64,000 nucleotides of DNA, taken from NCBI GenBank assembly GCA_000002445.1, contig AE017150.2:768001-832000 (forward strand), read 5' to 3'. The notes beneath the pieces were generated by a model. It was not told the DNA's origin. It worked only from the letters and a program-made list of their open reading frames with translations, and ran no database searches. Shown one piece after another: positions 47,788 through 54,674 of the stretch; the stretch's first letter is position 1; every line of letters starts with the position of its first letter. Both the position numbers and the translations under genes were made by a program. The stretch is from Trypanosoma brucei (lineage: Eukaryota).

Positions 47788-48378
47788 TTATTTAGTGAAT
47801 TCCTCCTCTGGTGCACTGTAGTCATAAAATGCCCTGTTGTGCATAATGAGTCGCCCATCAGCGAAGTAAAAACTGTCGCTCGTCATCTCATTGGTGCCCT
47901 TCTCTATTGCCTCGAGCCATTCTGCATTGAATTGCGGCACATCATACACCGCCTCCCATGTATTGCGGGAGTGTGGGATGCAGAAGCCAAATTTAAAATC
48001 AAATGTCTTTACGAGGGTGTTGCGGAAGTAATGTCGTTCAATCATACGAAGATCCGGCACCGGTTTATCGCCGTTGACGCCAAATAAAAGGGTGGCAGAC
48101 ACGCGCTGCTTTCGGAGCATTGATGGCGGGAAGCGGTAAAATATGGTCCGTGCCGCCTGTTGTTGCTCTTCTGGGAGTTGAGCGAGGGATGCCACAGAGG
48201 GATATGTGCTGGCATCTCGCTCTACTTCAAACATAACTTGTTTGGTGTCCGCGTCGCGAACAACGAAGGAATAAAACTCAATATTGTACGTGTTAGCTGT
48301 GATTGGGCAAAGGAACCCAGTGCTCGGTGCCGTCAGCTGCAGCACATGTTCGGGAGTGACCTCGGTCGTCGCAGCCAT
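47788..48378 (-). CDS. UNC119: UNC119 homologue (lipid-binding chaperone of myristoylated ciliary cargo; GMP-PDE-delta fold)
   Basis: [39 protein letters not shown] matches human UNC119 [39 protein letters not shown]. Also ITPEHVLQL / FLCP...[12 protein letters not shown] and [22 protein letters not shown]. The track start is a TTG; the first ATG is at 48378. Confidence 0.88.
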   Translation of the reverse strand: [196 protein letters not shown]

Positions 48379-49168
48379 GATGATAAACAAATCAAATAGG
48401 TTTTAAGCAGCAATAAAACGGTATAAGTATAATAAGTGTGACAAAACTAATCACAGCACACCCACAATAAAATCGAAAAGAAACTCAGGATTTGGAGGGA
48501 AATAATGAAATAAAAATGAAGGACAGAACAAAAAAAAAGGAGTGCAATAAAAATATCCAGACAGAATTTTTTTGTTCCTCTTTATATTTCTTCAAGTTAC
48601 TCCCTTCCTTCTTTGTTACCTTTTTCTCAAGAATGAGAAATAGGAATACTTTTTGCGTTTAGTTTCGTGTTATTATGGTTGGGTTCCCTGTTGTTGTTTT
48701 TGTTGTTTTCGTCCGTGATGTAGAACTTGATTATTATCTTCTTTTTTTTTCTTTTTACCTTGGCAAACGGTAAATAACAAAACGAAACAATCACCTAAAC
48801 AACTGCGAACAGAAAAGAAAAGAGGGCACAAATTAATGGAAATTAAGTAGAAAGCGCCACCTCCCTATTCACGTGCTGCTTCAATGTTCCGCGTCACGCC
48901 GTGGTTGATTTCTTCCTTTTTCTTTTGGTTTCTTTTCCGCTTGAGTATTATTTTTCTTTTTTGTGATAACAACAACACTCTTTCCTTTCCCTTCCCACTT
49001 TCTTGTCTTTTTTTTAAAATCTGTTTTTTTTGTGTGTGTGCTAGTTCGCTTCCTTTCTGTTCGTTATTTTGGTATACTTCTATTAAACAAAAGCAAAAAC
49101 AAAATAATTGGAAAGAAAGTGAGGAGGTGCGGATAAATGAGCGGATGTAAAAAATATTCAAGAAACGG

Positions 49169-49209
49169 ATATATATATATATATTTATTTATTTATTCAT
49201 TCATTCATC
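49169..49209. repeat. Compound (AT)n(ATTT)n(ATTC)n microsatellite
   Basis: atatatatatatatatttatttatttattcattcattcatc, read directly. Confidence 0.9.
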
Positions 49210-50239
49210 AATATGCCACCAACTGACATAAACAGTTGGAAACGTGATAATACGAAATTTTATTTTAAAAAAACTTTTTTTCGTCTTCAAACAATAGAGA
49301 CGGATTCAAATTAAACACACACAGCAAAGGGGGGCGAGAGAAATAGAAGGTTGGGAAAAGATCACAAGAAAGAAATAAAAAAGGACACGAGGCGCGCCAC
49401 AACAAATTTCCTTCCATCTCTCCCAAACAACAAAAACAAAAAAGGTGGAAATTAAAGTGGAATAATAAAGTAAAACGGAATGGAGAAAACACATGAACGG
49501 AAAGCCTACGTGCGCACAGTACAGTTGTGCGAAAAAAACAACATAACAAACATATAAACCTATAAATAAAGATTTATTTCTGCTGTTATTGCTTTTATAT
49601 TTTTTCCTCCTTCTTTCTCCCATTCATCCCTTCCTTTTCCTCCTCCTCCTCCTAAGCCATAAACGCTATTTAACAAAAATGGAGAAAGAAGAACAAGCAA
49701 AAACACAAAAGAAAAAAAAAGTAATAAGAAAAGAGACAAACAACACAAACTTCATCACCAACAAGAGCAAATCACAAAAAGGAAAAAGAAAATCAATTGC
49801 CCTGTCTCTTGTAGTTTTGTCACTTGCCCTTCTCCCTGTATTTTATTCGAATATACTCATCCTTCCCTTCTTATATACATATACATATTTCTCATTCCTC
49901 CTGTCAGAAAAATCCGCAAATTTTAAGACAAAAAGTAGAGAAAAGTAACCGTAAAAACGTATATGTTGATTAATCAATCATTAACCTATATTTAAATACA
50001 GATATATGCTTCAAGACCTTTTCAAAGCCACCAAAGGTAAACAAAAGGTCATTATATAAAAAAAGAACGGAAGCGACACCAAGGGAGGAAAAGCACTCCA
50101 TGAATTATTTAAATAAATGTAAGTAGAGACAAAAAAGATCGTCAAGCTTCCTACCACAACTTTTTACAAAAAAGATACAACAATAGAGGATCCCCGACCA
50201 TTTCTATTTTATCTCCAGTGTGCAATTACCCCGCCCCTT

Positions 50240-51690
50240 TTCATTCCCTTGTAAATGTGACCAAGCCTAAAATACCCACAAGTGCATTTCCTTCCGTAAC
50301 CACTTATTGTCTCCCGTTGCTTAAGAAGTGGTACCAACAATGCGTGACCACTCATGTTCCACATCACCATATTGAATATCTGTAATCGCCTTTAGAACCC
50401 GATGTGTGAGCGAAGCCCCTGGAGCCGGGCATGGAACATTAAGCAACTCTCCCTTATATGACAGTGCTTCCACAGGGGACACAATAGCAGCCGTCCCACA
50501 GCCAAAGCACTCAAGCACACGTTTCTCCCGTAGCGCAGCAGTGAGCTCGTGAATGGTAAAGGAGCGTTCAGATACACGTGCCTCACCCCACTGCCGCACC
50601 AGCGACAAAATGGAATCTCGCGTCACACCGGGGAGGATCGTGCCATCCAACGGCGCAGTTACAAGTTCCACTTCATTTGAATTTGCAGAAGGACGCCAAA
50701 GACACATGAAATTCATTGCTCCCACTTCTTGCACTTCTTCTCCAGCGCCCAGCCATAACACTTGCTGAAAGCCAAGCTCAGACGCTTCCCGCTGCACCAG
50801 CATAGGCGCAGCGTAGTTCGCGCCAAGCTTCACGTTGCCGACCCCACCAGGCCAGGCACGGCGCCGCTCCTCCTCCACATGAAGTCTCACAGGTTTCATC
50901 CCAGAGGGATAATATGGTCCAACAGGTGAAGCAATCACGAATAACTTCGCTGCAGAACCTGCCACTGCGGAGAGTGTGCTTCCAGTCCCAATTACAGTGG
51001 GTCTCAAGTATAGAGAGTAACCACGCTCACTTGGGACGTAATCACGTTCCACTTTCACAAACTCCTCAATTAACTTTTGCAGTTCGTCAGGGTCAAATCC
51101 AGGGAGACATAAGCGTCGTGTGCTGTCCAGTAGCCGTCGACAGTTACGATCCGGGCGGAAGAGTCGGATATTGCCGTGACTGTCGCGATACGCCTTCATG
51201 CCCTCGAAGCATTGAATGGCATAATGTAAGCAAGCAGTCTGCGGCGGCAATGAAAGGTTCTCAAAGGGAACAATACGTGGTTTGCCCCATTTCCCATTCC
51301 CATCTGCATCAATTACCAACATATGTGGGCTGAAAAGAGTACCAAACATAACTCCCTGCAGTGAAGGAAGTGGCGGTGGATTTGCCACGCGTTGAACAGT
51401 GAGGTCCTTGGCGAGGAAAGTCATAATAAACTGTTGTATTTGCCTGTGGTTCCCAAATATCGAAGTTTCTTTTATCAATAAGTTGTTTATCACTGTCGTC
51501 TGTGTTAGGAATGATAATGATAATAGTAAAGTGAGCAAAATAATGAAAGGTTATCATACAACGGTGCACACAAAACAACATGGGTGACGAACCACTGCAT
51601 AAAAACAAAACGACTTAACAAGGTAGTACTAACAAAATAAAAGAAGGACGCCACTAGCAAAAACGTACGCACAGATACTATACACTGCAG
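50240..51690. repeat. Tandem duplication unit, copy 1 (~1.45 kb: BCAT CDS plus ~90 bp 3' flank and ~270 bp 5' flank)
   Basis: Near-identical to 52079..53529; the period is 1839 bp. Identity starts at ttcattcccttgtaaatgtga and ends at cagatactatacactgcagt. The ~390 bp between the copies is unique. Confidence 0.95.
50321..51424 (-). CDS. BCAT: Branched-chain amino acid aminotransferase (PLP fold-type IV), copy 1
   Basis: QCFEGMKAYRDSHGNIRLFRPDRNCRRLLDSTRRLCLP and the surrounding sequence are classic BCAT. 367 aa from the first ATG (MTFLAKDLTVQRV). The track start at 51538 is a TTG. Confidence 0.88.
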   Translation of the reverse strand: MTFLAKDLTVQRVANPPPLPSLQGVMFGTLFSPHMLVIDADGNGKWGKPRIVPFENLSLPPQTACLHYAIQCFEGMKAYRDSHGNIRLFRPDRNCRRLLDSTRRLCLPGFDPDELQKLIEEFVKVERDYVPSERGYSLYLRPTVIGTGSTLSAVAGSAAKLFVIASPVGPYYPSGMKPVRLHVEEERRRAWPGGVGNVKLGANYAAPMLVQREASELGFQQVLWLGAGEEVQEVGAMNFMCLWRPSANSNEVELVTAPLDGTILPGVTRDSILSLVRQWGEARVSERSFTIHELTAALREKRVLECFGCGTAAIVSPVEALSYKGELLNVPCPAPGASLTHRVLKAITDIQYGDVEHEWSRIVGTTS

Positions 51691-52078
51691 TACGGGCAGT
51701 AATTTTGTTAACGATATATCAGGCAATGTGTAACTGTATAATTTTACATGTGGAGTGTAGAGGTGGTAACGGTCGTACTTGCTTCGTTTCAGCATTTAAC
51801 AATGAAATACAATAAAACCAAGCAGCACAACCGGACTTTGCTGAACGGGAACACAAACATATTATACGAGAAAGTACGCACCACATATACTAGCAGGATA
51901 GCTTGTATGGTATCCAAATGAGTTTGCGATATGGCAAAAATTAAAAATAAAATCCGTATCAGAAACAAAAAAATAGATCAACTTAATGGTTGTGAGTAAC
52001 ATGAATTGCCATTCACAGAAACGTTTTTCAAGTCACTTCAATCCAGAATCTAGTTCGTTTTCTTTTACTTCACAATGT

Positions 52079-53529
52079 TTCATTCCCTTGTAAATGTGAC
52101 GAAGCCTAAAATACCCACAAGCGCATTTCCTTCCGTAACCACTTATTGTCTCCCGTTGCTTAAGAAGTGGTACCAACAATGCGTGACCACTCATGTTCCA
52201 CATCACCATATTGAATATCTGTAATCGCCTTTAGAACCCGATGTGTGAGCGAAGCCCCTGGAGCCGGGCATGGAACATTAAGCAACTCTCCCTTATATGA
52301 CAGTGCTTCCACAGGGGACACAATAGCAGCCGTCCCACAGCCAAAGCACTCAAGCACACGTTTCTCCCGTAGCGCAGCAGTGAGCTCGTGAATGGTAAAG
52401 GAGCGTTCAGATACACGTGCCTCACCCCACTGCCGCACCAGCGACAAAATGGAATCTCGCGTCACACCGGGGAGGATCGTGCCATCCAACGGCGCAGTTA
52501 CAAGTTCCACTTCATTTGAATTTGCAGAAGGACGCCAAAGACACATGAAATTCATTGCTCCCACTTCTTGCACTTCTTCTCCAGCGCCCAGCCATAACAC
52601 TTGCTGAAAGCCAAGCTCAGACGCTTCCTGCTGCACCAGCATAGGCGCAGCGTAGTTCGCGCCAAGCTTCACGTTGCCGACCCCACCAGGCCAGGCACGG
52701 CGCCGCTCCTCCTCCACATGAAGTCTCACAGGTTTCATCCCAGAGGGATAATATGGTCCAACAGGTGAAGCAATCACGAATAACTTCGCTGCAGAACCTG
52801 CCACTGCGGAGAGTTTGCTTCCAGTCCCAATTACAGTGGGTCTCAAGTATAGAGAGTAACCACGCTCACTTGGGACGTAATCACGTTCCACTTTCACAAA
52901 CTCCTCAATTAACTTTTGCAGTTCGTCAGGGTCAAATCCAGGGAGACATAAGCGTCGTGTGCTGTCCAGTAGCCGTCGACAGTTACGATCCGGGCGGAAG
53001 AGTCGGATATTGCCGTGACTGTCGCGATACGCCTTCATGCCCTCGAAGCATTGAATGGCATAATGTAAGCAAGCAGTCTGCGGCGGCAATGAAAGGTTCT
53101 CAAAGGGAACAATACGTGGTTTGCCCCATTTCCCATTCCCATCTGCATCAATTACCAACATATGTGGGCTGAAAAGAGTACCAAACATAACTCCCTGCAG
53201 TGAAGGAAGTGGCGGTGGATTTGCCACGCGTTGAACAAAAATTTTTTTGGCGAGGAAAGTCATAATAAACTGTTGTATTTGCCTGTGGTTCCCAAATATC
53301 GAAGTTTCTTTTATCAATAAGTTGTTTATCACTGTCGTCTGTGTTAGGAATGATAATGATAATAGTAAAGTGAGCAAAATAATGAAAGGTTATCATACAA
53401 CGGTGCACACAAAACAACATGGGTGACGAACCACTGCATAAAAACAAAACGACTTAACAAGGTAGTACTAACAAAATAAAAGAAGGACGCCACTAGCAAA
53501 AACGTGCGCACAGATACTATACACTGCAG
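52079..53529. repeat. Tandem duplication unit, copy 2
   Basis: See copy 1. Differs from it by an 11-nt patch (53238-53248) and a few point substitutions. Confidence 0.95.
52160..53263 (-). CDS. BCAT: Branched-chain amino acid aminotransferase, copy 2
   Basis: Identical to copy 1 except N-terminal KIF versus DLT, T-to-K (GSKLS versus GSTLS) and R-to-Q (VQQE versus VQRE). ATG at 53263. Confidence 0.88.
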   Translation of the reverse strand: MTFLAKKIFVQRVANPPPLPSLQGVMFGTLFSPHMLVIDADGNGKWGKPRIVPFENLSLPPQTACLHYAIQCFEGMKAYRDSHGNIRLFRPDRNCRRLLDSTRRLCLPGFDPDELQKLIEEFVKVERDYVPSERGYSLYLRPTVIGTGSKLSAVAGSAAKLFVIASPVGPYYPSGMKPVRLHVEEERRRAWPGGVGNVKLGANYAAPMLVQQEASELGFQQVLWLGAGEEVQEVGAMNFMCLWRPSANSNEVELVTAPLDGTILPGVTRDSILSLVRQWGEARVSERSFTIHELTAALREKRVLECFGCGTAAIVSPVEALSYKGELLNVPCPAPGASLTHRVLKAITDIQYGDVEHEWSRIVGTTS

Positions 53530-54035
53530 TGCAACGAACAACAAGTAATTCTTTTCATAGAGAATGGTGGTGAACTCAAACGTGGGACGAAATAGGATAG
53601 TGGTATATAATGTTAGACCAAATCAGCAAGAAGAAAAACACTCTTCTCTCTCCAGTACCATTTACAACGGCACCTTTATCGTATATATATATATGCTTGT
53701 TTTTTTGTTTTTAATGATTCAACTCCTGCTATATTTTTTACTTATCCTTTAGTTTCGGTCTCCATTTACCGCATTCCACTGCAATAATATGTAATTCCCA
53801 CCCTTGGGCATCTAGAAAAAAATGTTTGCCATTTACTTTTTTATTCGCCCCCTTAAGCTCTTCATCAGGCGAAACACTCGATCAAATGGGGCACGATTTC
53901 CTCTGCTATCCCTCTCGTGAAGCCGCTGCTTTTCCGAACAGTGGTGGTATGCTTAATAAATTGTATGTAACGGGTGTGATGATATTGCAACGGTCACAGT
54001 GACACATGCATGTAACAAATCTTTTAACATATTAA

Positions 54036-54674
54036 TTATGATTTCGAGAAAAAGTATTTCCTCAGTGACGAGACGATTGTCGCCCTCTTACCCGACTGGT
54101 CTGCAGGCAGCTTCGTGCCTTGAGGGGGTCGTAGCATTTGCAGTCCATCAGAAATGCCACATGGTCCTACCTCCACTGAGAGAATTAGCCCTGTGGGCAC
54201 AAGCCATAACATGATCATGAAGACAAACATATTCCCGTAACCAACCACCTCAGACGGCGCGTCTAAAGATACCAGGAGGTGCAGCCACAATACGGACTCT
54301 AAGAGAACAAAGAACCCCATGAACCATGTGAAGGGTTGTAGCAGCGGAAGGAGCGGGAAATGGCGCAAAGCGCGAAGGTACAGCCCATTTGTGATGCAAC
54401 TAACGAGTGAACATAAAAAGTTCATCCGGTCCACTACCATAATGAAGACATGAGCACCCATCACGGCAACCACCAGCACACGGAGGACCTTACCTGCTCG
54501 TGTTGGGAACTCTTCTGCCAAGTCAGAAATCAAATTCATGGCACAGAAGAAACTGAACAAAGCAAAGCAAAACAGTATTCCAGTCATCACCAGCGTTACG
54601 AGATGAAAGGCACCGAAGCCTATTGGTTGCGATAACGAAGAGTAGTCGCGTTCATAAACATCGGGATAAGGCAT
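54036..54674 (-). CDS. TEX261/Svp26-family membrane protein (putative ER-exit cargo receptor)
   Basis: ISDLAEEFPTRAGKVLRVLVV ... NGLYLRALRHFPLLPL resembles human TEX261 [21 protein letters not shown] ... NLVYFGLLQTFPFIML. About 6 hydrophobic helices. ATG at 54674. Confidence 0.55.
   Translation of the reverse strand: MPYPDVYERDYSSLSQPIGFGAFHLVTLVMTGILFCFALFSFFCAMNLISDLAEEFPTRAGKVLRVLVVAVMGAHVFIMVVDRMNFLCSLVSCITNGLYLRALRHFPLLPLLQPFTWFMGFFVLLESVLWLHLLVSLDAPSEVVGYGNMFVFMIMLWLVPTGLILSVEVGPCGISDGLQMLRPPQGTKLPADQSGKRATIVSSLRKYFFSKS

What the first reader, a model, noticed from the sequence alone, without database searches (positions are those of the whole stretch)
50240..53529. Tandem duplication of a branched-chain aminotransferase gene: 1839-bp period, >99% identity including UTR flanks
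Two 1.45-kb units (50240-51690 and 52079-53529) are almost identical. Each contains a 367-codon BCAT ORF, about 90 bp of 3' flank and about 270 bp of 5' flank. Near-identity extends through the non-coding flanks. The differences are the 11-nt patch reported in the next finding plus only two further non-synonymous point changes (T/K and R/Q); none is a silent third-position change. That pattern fits concerted evolution or gene conversion, or a very recent duplication, rather than long divergence. Arrays like this are often collapsed in assemblies, so the true copy number may be higher than two. Gene dosage of a leucine-catabolism enzyme, which feeds sterol and isoprenoid precursors in trypanosomatids, could matter functionally.
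Basis: seen in the sequence. Interest (0 to 1): 0.6.

Follow-up and report, generated by a model that had tools for sequence, protein, structure and literature searches.

The report
Known tandem BCAT gene pair, T. brucei
The two near-identical units are the already annotated branched-chain aminotransferase genes Tb927.2.4590 and Tb927.2.4610 of Trypanosoma brucei chromosome 2, a lineage-specific tandem duplicate kept alike by gene conversion, which is an ordinary and well-described situation in trypanosomes.

Summary
Windows 50239-51691 and 52078-53530 form an ungapped 1453-bp direct repeat with a period of 1839 bp and 12 mismatches (99.2% identity). Each unit holds a 367-codon class IV aminotransferase gene on the minus strand.

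The two proteins are exact matches to T. b. brucei TREU927 XP_951648.1 and XP_951649.1. Published splice and poly(A) coordinates place the window at chr2:768001-832000. Copy 1 is Tb927.2.4590 and copy 2 is Tb927.2.4610.

T. vivax and T. congolense have one gene at this position. T. b. gambiense has the same two-copy structure. A T. b. equiperdum assembly has three units.

Across these strains, 9 sites carry a strain-specific state that is shared by the paralogues of one genome. The 9-nt N-terminal patch (DLT to KIF) stays specific to the upstream copy in all three strains. The duplication therefore predates the subspecies and is homogenised by gene conversion or unequal crossing-over. It is neither a very recent duplication nor an assembly artefact.

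Only 82 nt of the mapped 543-nt 3'UTR of the upstream copy lie inside the repeat, so the two mRNAs carry different 3'UTRs.

This is known biology and of low interest. The only open point is whether the retained patch marks functional isoforms.

The parts
50239..51691 (-). Repeat unit 1, the downstream copy in the direction of transcription. It contains the polypyrimidine tract, the splice acceptor, the 5'UTR, the CDS and 82 nt of 3'UTR of Tb927.2.4590.
   Evidence: Ungapped comparison and blastn.
50321..51424 (-). CDS of BCAT copy 1 (Tb927.2.4590, XP_951648.1): 367 aa plus stop, with the ancestral N-terminus MTFLAKDLTV.
   Evidence: Translation. Exact sequence look-up. Pfam PF01063 and NCBIfam ilvE_II equivalogs above cut-off. 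The gene ID follows from the splice-site coordinate 819499 in the PMC2936537 supplement.
51692..52077 (-). Unique 386-bp spacer (35% GC). It forms the middle part of the 3'UTR of the upstream copy.
   Evidence: No similarity to either flank or to the rest of the window. It is 98.7-99.0% conserved in gambiense and equiperdum, and present twice in equiperdum.
52078..53530 (-). Repeat unit 2, the upstream copy, which is transcribed first.
52160..53263 (-). CDS of BCAT copy 2 (Tb927.2.4610, XP_951649.1 / Q586R1): 367 aa plus stop, with the derived N-terminus MTFLAKKIFV, K150 and Q212.
51399..51407 (-). Patch, ancestral state: GGACCTCAC on the minus strand, covering the end of codon 6 and codons 7-9 (K-D-L-T).
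   Evidence: The outgroups carry D/N/Q/C-L-T/I at these residues.
53238..53246 (-). Patch, derived state: AAAAATTTT (K-K-I-F). It is present in the upstream copy of all three T. brucei strains compared.
51499..51501 (-). Major trans-splice acceptor of copy 1. The AG is at 51501-51500 and the first mRNA base is 51499, giving a 75-nt 5'UTR.
   Evidence: PMC2936537 supplement: chr2:819499, 396 reads. The AG was read directly.
53338..53340 (-). Major trans-splice acceptor of copy 2, at the same relative position, giving a 75-nt 5'UTR.
   Evidence: PMC2936537 supplement: chr2:821338. 821338 - 819499 = 1839, which is the repeat period.
51617..51617 (-). Mapped poly(A) site of copy 2. Its 543-nt 3'UTR consists of 82 nt of repeat, the 386-nt spacer and 75 nt of the 5' flank of unit 1.
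   Evidence: PMC2936537 supplement: chr2:819617, 3'UTR 543 nt. 52160 - 543 = 51617.

Best explanation
[quoted passage not shown] Both lie on the minus strand inside one long polycistronic unit.

The gene was duplicated in the T. brucei lineage after its split from T. congolense and T. vivax, which have one gene here, and before the T. brucei subspecies diverged. Since then a 1453-bp block has been repeatedly homogenised between the copies by gene conversion and unequal crossing-over. The block holds the polypyrimidine tract, the splice acceptor, the 75-nt 5'UTR, the CDS and 82 nt of 3'UTR. The sequence outside the block is unrelated between the copies.

Unequal crossing-over also changes copy number; one equiperdum assembly has three units. 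Each copy is trans-spliced at its own identical acceptor.

Shown here: the identity of the genes, the structure of the repeat, the pattern of concerted evolution, the copy-number difference between assemblies, and the mRNA ends. The mRNA ends are taken from published mapping.

Inferred: because trypanosomes lack gene-specific promoters, the pair probably doubles BCAT mRNA output. The different 3'UTRs would allow separate post-transcriptional control, but this has not been shown.
For: Identity of the genes:
- Both window proteins are exact matches to TREU927 XP_951648.1 and XP_951649.1 on a 1,193,948-bp contig.
- They pass Pfam PF01063 and the NCBIfam BCAT equivalogs NF009897 and TIGR01123 above cut-off.
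- They align end to end with human BCATc and BCATm, including the GG.G..K.G.NY lysine.

Gene IDs and mRNA ends:
- Published SL sites are chr2:819499 and chr2:821338, 1839 bp apart, each giving a 75-nt 5'UTR.
- The poly(A) site of Tb927.2.4610 is at chr2:819617.
- The offset of 768000 was cross-checked on Tb927.2.4580. Its SL site at 816446 with a 68-nt 5'UTR places the ATG at window 48378, an in-frame ATG of the GMP-PDE-delta ORF.

Age of the duplication:
- T. vivax has a single copy next to GMP-PDE-delta.
- The orthogroup table of PMC8384185 lists one T. congolense gene, one T. vivax gene and no T. cruzi gene.
- The same KIF-spacer-DLT structure is present in gambiense DAL972 and in equiperdum.

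Concerted evolution:
- At unit positions 87 (indel), 226, 408, 609, 621, 759, 981, 1260 and 1290, the paralogues of one genome share a state that differs between strains.
- Within-genome paralogue distances are 5, 8 and 2-6 substitutions. Positional orthologues differ by 7-16.
- My estimate of the coincidences expected by chance is below 0.1.

Unequal crossing-over:
- Equiperdum has three units and two copies of the spacer.
- Its middle unit combines a DLT 5' part with the 3' end of the KIF copy at positions 1401 and 1414.

General precedent:
- Jackson 2007, PMC1855330.
Against: The 386-bp spacer matches neither flank. A simple head-to-tail duplication of a contiguous segment does not by itself give the present structure, so the original breakpoints cannot be reconstructed. 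The block edges are sharp rather than graded.

The third equiperdum unit carries three 1-nt deletions in T runs. It comes from a single assembly, so it could be partly an assembly product or a pseudogene.

For 927 versus gambiense the contrast between paralogue and orthologue distances is small (5-8 versus 7-12). The case rests on site patterns rather than on distances.

The dosage effect and differential regulation by the 3'UTRs are inferred, not shown. Published read counts for the two identical 5'UTRs (396 versus 24) cannot be assigned to one copy.
Confidence: 0.9

Rival explanations
1. A very recent duplication that has simply not had time to diverge, with no gene conversion involved.
For: There are only 12 differences in 1453 bp, and no silent differences between the two TREU927 CDSs outside the patch.
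Against: The same structure, the same spacer (98.7-99.0% identical) and the same 9-nt patch occur in gambiense and equiperdum, so the duplication predates their split. Nine sites are strain-specific but shared by the paralogues of one genome, which cannot happen without sequence exchange between the copies. The flanks outside the block show no residual similarity at all.
Confidence: 0.03
2. An assembly artefact: one gene was written twice, or two alleles were placed in tandem.
For: Near-identical tandem units are a classic source of assembly error. TriTrypDB also holds an unplaced third model, Tb11.v5.0820.
Against: Three assemblies from different projects show at least two units, with the same copy-specific differences and the same unique spacer. 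Published transcript mapping finds a poly(A) site whose 3'UTR runs through the spacer, and two splice sites 1839 bp apart. A short-read contig from an unrelated run (L003, 1458 bp) ends almost exactly at the repeat boundaries, as expected for a true repeat with two different contexts.
Confidence: 0.01
3. Strong purifying selection on the enzyme alone keeps two old copies alike, without any sequence exchange.
For: Across all seven units the CDS outside the patch has 11 synonymous and 4 non-synonymous variable sites, so the protein is under constraint.
Against: Selection on the protein cannot explain identity at synonymous sites or across the 267-bp 5' flank. It also cannot explain why 7 synonymous sites, a 5'-flank substitution and a 5'-flank indel changed in parallel in the paralogues of one genome.
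Confidence: 0.02
4. This adds to the main explanation rather than excluding it. The two copies encode functionally distinct isoforms. Selection keeps the DLT-to-KIF patch, and perhaps K150, in the upstream copy against homogenisation, for example by changing the efficiency of mitochondrial import or the stability of the protein. The different 3'UTRs would give the two copies different regulation.
For: The patch is copy-specific in all three strains, while sites on both sides of it were homogenised; in equiperdum, positions 25, 716 and 1358 were converted but the patch was kept. The differences that stay copy-specific across strains are the patch, T150K (both amino-acid changing) and one 5'-flank site. 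The change removes the only acidic residue in the first 13 residues and adds Lys, Ile and Phe. The DLT-like state is ancestral across kinetoplastids. The 3'UTRs differ beyond 82 nt.
Against: The numbers are small. A cluster of 7 mismatches in 9 nt may by itself impede conversion through it. K150 was lost in equiperdum. The BCAT protein group is in the mitochondrial importome, and Tb927.2.4590 (the DLT form), quantified on its own with 3 unique peptides, also drops on ATOM40 knock-down. The ancestral N-terminus is therefore already compatible with import. No isoform-specific localisation or expression data were found; the TrypTag supplement had no entry.
Confidence: 0.3

Closest known systems
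Tandem gene arrays of T. brucei evolving in concert (Jackson 2007, BMC Evol Biol 7:54, PMC1855330)
   Same: Head-to-tail duplicates in a polycistronic unit. Paralogues within a genome are more alike than positional orthologues. Gene conversion affects UTRs as well as the CDS. Terminal non-coding regions are curtailed or unrelated. Copy number differs between strains.
   Different: The BCAT pair is not in that paper's Table 1. It has only two copies in the reference, so the 'internal intergenic sequence' exists once and cannot be compared within TREU927.
T. brucei phosphoglycerate kinase genes PGKA/B/C (from my own knowledge; not checked here)
   Same: Tandem isoenzyme genes whose coding regions are homogenised by gene conversion, while short terminal differences and distinct 3'UTRs are retained.
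   Different: For PGK, the retained terminal difference and the 3'UTRs have a demonstrated role in glycosomal versus cytosolic location and in stage-specific expression. For BCAT, no functional difference between the copies is known.
Paralogous BCAT isoenzymes of yeast (Bat1/Bat2) and mammals (BCAT2 mitochondrial, BCAT1 cytosolic)
   Same: The same enzyme family. The T. brucei protein aligns over its full length with human BCATc and BCATm (E about 1e-98 to 1e-93). Both are cases of a duplicated BCAT gene.
   Different: Those pairs are old, dispersed and strongly diverged, with a cleavable presequence on one member. The T. brucei pair is 98.6% identical at the protein level and tandem. Neither copy has an N-terminal extension, and both start at the position of the mature human enzymes. 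Leishmaniinae orthologues do carry an Arg-rich extension of about 20 aa.

Membership tests
Branched-chain amino acid aminotransferase (PLP fold type IV, EC 2.6.1.42, ilvE group II) | Match to the class IV aminotransferase domain above the curated threshold. | tested here: met
   PF01063 scores 105.7 and 106.5 bits against a cut-off of 28.5, covering profile positions 1-221 of 223.
Branched-chain amino acid aminotransferase (PLP fold type IV, EC 2.6.1.42, ilvE group II) | Match to BCAT equivalog models above their trusted cut-offs. | tested here: met
   NF009897 scores 336 bits (cut-off 307). TIGR01123 ilvE_II scores 290 bits (cut-off 250). Both copies pass.
Branched-chain amino acid aminotransferase (PLP fold type IV, EC 2.6.1.42, ilvE group II) | Conserved PLP-binding lysine and surrounding motif. 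| tested here: met
   K199 in GGVGNVKLGANY aligns with GGTGDCKMGGNY of human BCATc and is invariant in kinetoplastid orthologues. That this Lys forms the Schiff base comes from my knowledge of the human enzymes.
Branched-chain amino acid aminotransferase (PLP fold type IV, EC 2.6.1.42, ilvE group II) | Transamination of Leu, Ile and Val with 2-oxoglutarate. | not testable with these tools
   The review PMC6027508 lists Tb927.2.4590 as BCAT without a characterisation reference.
Trypanosomatid tandem gene array under concerted evolution | Head-to-tail copies on one strand within a polycistronic unit, each with its own trans-splice site. | tested here: met
   All ORFs of 300 aa or more in the window lie on the minus strand. 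The splice sites are 1839 bp apart at the same relative AG.
Trypanosomatid tandem gene array under concerted evolution | Paralogues of one genome share derived states that positional orthologues in other strains or species lack. | tested here: met
   Nine such sites and the distance matrix.
Trypanosomatid tandem gene array under concerted evolution | Copy-number change by unequal crossing-over. | tested here: met
   Three units and two spacers in the T. b. equiperdum assembly GCA_003543875.1, against two units in TREU927 and DAL972. This rests on a single assembly, and the third unit has homopolymer indels.
Assembly duplication artefact | The duplicate is not reproduced in independent assemblies or in transcript data. 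| tested here: not met
   It is reproduced in three assemblies with conserved copy-specific differences, and by poly(A) and SL mapping.

The most novel reading that the evidence does not exclude
The upstream copy (Tb927.2.4610) is a lineage-specific BCAT isoform. Its derived N-terminus (DLT to KIF, created by a clustered change of 7 substitutions in 9 nt) is protected by selection from the gene conversion that homogenises the rest of the unit. Together with its distinct 543-nt 3'UTR, this would give T. brucei two differently targeted or differently regulated BCAT activities from an otherwise identical gene pair.
Probability: 0.25. Interest if true: 0.4.

Novelty: already known. Interest (0 to 1): 0.15.

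Why it matters
It matters little beyond bookkeeping. Both genes have been annotated in the T. brucei reference, appear as a pair in transcriptome and proteome tables, and fit the well-described pattern of concerted evolution in trypanosome tandem arrays.

There are three practical consequences:
- Reads and peptides from the two genes are mostly indistinguishable, so published expression values are pooled.
- RNAi or knock-out designs will hit both copies.
- Copy number is not fixed across strains.

The one point that could repay a small experiment is whether the retained N-terminal patch and the different 3'UTRs make the copies functionally distinct.

Tried and rejected
1. I considered that KIF creates a mitochondrial targeting signal while the DLT form is cytosolic. 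This is not supported. The BCAT group falls 5-fold in purified mitochondria on ATOM40 RNAi, and Tb927.2.4590 (DLT), quantified separately, also falls.

2. I looked for a relic of the original duplication by comparing the spacer with both flanks and with the whole window. Nothing exceeded the shuffled controls, so the breakpoints could not be reconstructed.

3. The TrypTag supplement (PMC9981465) has no entry for either gene ID in the text held.

4. Siegel 2010 (PMC2926603) has no supplement held.

5. Exact-protein look-ups for the T. congolense protein P0002 and for TREU927 P0122 found no contig. T. congolense copy number was therefore taken from a published orthogroup table, and the window's chromosomal position from published splice-site coordinates.

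6. The 396 versus 24 spliced-leader reads for the two copies were not used as evidence of differential expression. The 75-nt 5'UTRs are identical, so read assignment is arbitrary.

7. I first recalled that T150K lay in the BCAT interdomain loop. The alignment numbering does not fit that recollection, so I dropped the idea.
Full report
**Observation**

An ungapped comparison at an offset of 1839 bp shows that window 50239-51691 and 52078-53530 are the same 1453-bp sequence apart from 12 mismatches (99.17% identity). Identity drops to random within a few bases on both sides. The differences are:
- 50262 and 50283, downstream of the stop codon;
- 50790 (R212Q);
- 50976 (T150K);
- seven substitutions within 51399-51407;
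- 51667, upstream of the ATG.

Both units carry a 367-codon ORF on the minus strand, with ATGs at 51424 and 53263 and stops at 50321 and 52160. The repeat includes 267 bp upstream of the ATG and 82 bp downstream of the stop.

- It missed the three non-coding differences.
- The patch is 7 substitutions in 9 nt (GGACCTCAC to AAAAATTTT on the coding strand), not 11 nt.
- The patch includes a silent AAG-to-AAA change in codon 6.

**What the genes are**

Both proteins pass Pfam PF01063 and the NCBIfam BCAT equivalogs NF009897 and TIGR01123 above their curated cut-offs. They align over their full length with human cytosolic and mitochondrial BCAT (E about 1e-98 to 1e-93). The alignment includes the lysine of the GG.G..K.G.NY motif.

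An exact-sequence look-up identifies the two proteins as XP_951648.1/AAQ15917.1 (copy 1) and XP_951649.1/AAQ15919.1/Q586R1 (copy 2) of T. brucei brucei TREU927, on a contig of 1,193,948 bp.

The supplement of Kolev et al. 2010 (PMC2936537) gives the major spliced-leader sites of Tb927.2.4590 and Tb927.2.4610 at chr2:819499 and chr2:821338 on the minus strand. Each gives a 75-nt 5'UTR. The two sites are 1839 bp apart, which is the repeat period, and this places the window at chr2:768001-832000. The same offset puts the Tb927.2.4580 start on the in-frame ATG at window 48378 of the GMP-PDE-delta ORF. Hence copy 1 (N-terminus MTFLAKDLTV) is Tb927.2.4590 and copy 2 (MTFLAKKIFV) is Tb927.2.4610.

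The pair is therefore already annotated. The two genes are listed together in transcriptome, proteome and orthogroup tables, and the review PMC6027508 names Tb927.2.4590 as the T. brucei BCAT.

**Context and mRNA anatomy**

Every ORF of 300 aa or more in the window is on the minus strand, so this is one polycistronic unit. In the direction of transcription the order is Erv26 homologue (54036-54674), BCAT copy 2, a 386-bp spacer, BCAT copy 1, then GMP-PDE-delta (47788-48390).

The AG used for trans-splicing lies at 51501-51500 in copy 1 (read) and at the equivalent position in copy 2. The repeat therefore contains the polypyrimidine tract, the acceptor and the whole 5'UTR.

The mapped poly(A) site of Tb927.2.4610 is chr2:819617, which is window 51617, giving a 3'UTR of 543 nt. 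That UTR is made of 82 nt of repeat, the 386-nt unique spacer and 75 nt of the 5' flank of the next unit. The 3'UTR of Tb927.2.4590 must run into the unrelated sequence below 50239.

The two mRNAs therefore share the 5'UTR and CDS but differ over most of the 3'UTR.

**Age of the duplication**

T. vivax has a single BCAT gene immediately upstream of GMP-PDE-delta, and tblastn finds no second copy in 17 kb. The orthogroup table of Awuah-Mensah et al. 2021 (PMC8384185) lists one gene in the long-read T. congolense IL3000 assembly, one in T. vivax and none in T. cruzi. For T. brucei it lists three models: Tb927.2.4590, Tb927.2.4610 and the unplaced Tb11.v5.0820.

T. b. gambiense DAL972 (L001) and T. 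b. equiperdum (L002) have the same arrangement as TREU927. The KIF copy comes first, the spacer is 98.7-99.0% identical to that of TREU927, and the DLT copy follows. The duplication thus arose in the T. brucei lineage before its subspecies diverged. A 'very recent duplication' is excluded.

**Concerted evolution**

I aligned the seven units: two from TREU927, two from gambiense and three from equiperdum.

At nine positions the paralogues of one genome share a state that differs between strains. These are unit positions 87 (a 3-nt indel), 226, 408, 609, 621, 759, 981, 1260 and 1290. Seven of them are synonymous coding sites and two lie in the 5' flank. With at most 16 substitutions between any two units over 1444 sites, I estimate far fewer than one such coincidence by chance.

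Excluding the patch, paralogues within a genome differ by 5 (TREU927), 8 (gambiense) and 2-6 (equiperdum) substitutions. Positional orthologues differ by 7-16.

Three features stay copy-specific across strains: position 25 and T150K (in TREU927 and gambiense) and the patch (in all three). Together, these two kinds of site require an old duplication followed by exchange of sequence between the copies. Purifying selection alone cannot explain the parallel changes at synonymous and non-coding sites.

This matches the behaviour Jackson (2007, PMC1855330) described for T. brucei tandem arrays in general. The BCAT pair is not among the arrays in his Table 1.

**Copy number**

The equiperdum assembly has three units (L002 5731-7186, 7573-9028 and 9415-10867) and two copies of the spacer.

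The middle unit has the DLT patch but shares positions 1401 and 1414 with the KIF unit. This is what an unequal crossover between a DLT and a KIF copy would produce.

The third unit has three single-T deletions in T runs and was not called as a gene. Either assembly error or a pseudogene could explain this, and I cannot tell which.

For TREU927 it is untested. The unplaced model Tb11.v5.0820 could be an allele or a further copy.

**The artefact rival**

The duplicate is present in three assemblies from different projects, with the same copy-specific differences and the same unique spacer. A published poly(A) site defines a 3'UTR that runs through the spacer. A short-read contig from an unrelated run (L003, 1458 bp) ends almost exactly at the repeat boundaries. 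An assembly artefact is therefore very unlikely.

**What remains unexplained**

The spacer resembles neither flank nor anything else in the window. The original duplication breakpoints are therefore not recoverable. The spacer could be diverged remains of the duplicated segment or filler acquired at the junction.

The patch is the other open point. The DLT-like state is ancestral: the other Trypanosoma species, Bodo and the Leishmaniinae have D/N/Q/C/A at residue 7, L/I at residue 8 and mostly T at residue 9. KIF is derived and confined to the upstream copy.

In equiperdum, sites on both sides of the patch were converted, but the patch was kept. Two readings fit this. Selection may act on an isoform difference. 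Alternatively, a dense cluster of mismatches may simply impede conversion through it.

I tested the obvious idea that KIF creates a mitochondrial targeting signal against published data. In Peikert et al. 2017 (PMC5436138) the BCAT protein group falls to 0.19 in purified mitochondria after ATOM40 knock-down. Tb927.2.4590, quantified alone with three unique peptides, falls to 0.51 in organelle-enriched fractions. The ancestral form is therefore already imported, and the simple cytosolic-versus-mitochondrial split is not supported. No isoform-specific localisation data were found.

**Verdict**

The feature is the known Tb927.2.4590/Tb927.2.4610 pair, a T. brucei-lineage tandem duplicate evolving in concert.

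The analysis here adds four things:
- site-level evidence for conversion;
- a three-unit array in one equiperdum assembly;
- the finding that most of the 3'UTR lies outside the homogenised block;
- the persistence of the N-terminal patch across subspecies.

None of this is surprising to a specialist. Interest is low. The only modestly novel possibility is functional differentiation of the two isoforms.

Noticed in passing
window 51399-51407 versus 53238-53246: The clustered change GGACCTCAC to AAAAATTTT turns K-D-L-T into K-K-I-F. It produces an A7T5 run in the upstream copy (GCC AAA AAA ATT TTT GTT) and is conserved in TREU927, gambiense and equiperdum. The mutational origin of such a multi-nucleotide replacement is unclear.
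   Followed up: partly
L002 9415-10867 (T. b. equiperdum, GCA_003543875.1 CM010673.1): This is a third BCAT unit that was not called as a gene. It has three single-T deletions, all in T runs (unit positions 55, 922 and 981). Two of them would shift the reading frame. The cause could be long-read homopolymer error or a real pseudogene.
   Followed up: partly
window about 48989-49079 (minus strand): Kolev et al. 2010 list a novel transcript, Tb2.NT.41, between BCAT copy 1 and GMP-PDE-delta. Its SL site is chr2:817079 (108 reads) and its poly(A) sites are around chr2:816989-817028. That would make a very short RNA. A (TA)n/(TATT)n microsatellite lies just upstream of it at 49158-49215.
   Followed up: no
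BCAT residues 306-309 (window about 50498-50509 in copy 1): A C-F-G-C motif directly precedes the GTAA motif. C309 is invariant and C306 nearly so in kinetoplastid BCATs. Human BCATs have F-G-S-G at this spot and, from memory, a redox-active CXXC a few residues further on, which the trypanosome proteins lack.
   Followed up: no
alignment A2, N-termini: Leishmania and Novymonas BCATs carry an Arg-rich N-terminal extension of about 20 residues (MLLSRRWHQASAARGSRAPV...). Trypanosoma BCATs have no extension, and Bodo and Leptomonas lack the Arg-rich one. Even so, the T. brucei protein behaves as an ATOM40-dependent mitochondrial protein. Its import signal is therefore not an obvious cleavable presequence.
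   Followed up: partly
L003 (Logan contig ERR7929162_4729, 1458 bp): This short-read contig is nearly coextensive with the 1453-bp repeat unit and matches the equiperdum KIF unit (same identity to unit 1, 19 mismatches). It shows how the repeat breaks short-read assemblies exactly at its boundaries.
   Followed up: no
window 50914-51333 and 52753-53172 (plus strand): There are identical 139-codon ORFs antisense to both BCAT genes. They are almost certainly spurious products of the duplicated sequence.
   Followed up: no
PMC5436138 and PMC8384185 supplements: A third T. brucei TREU927 BCAT gene model, Tb11.v5.0820, sits on unplaced 'bin' sequence. It could be the other haplotype or an extra copy.
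   Followed up: no
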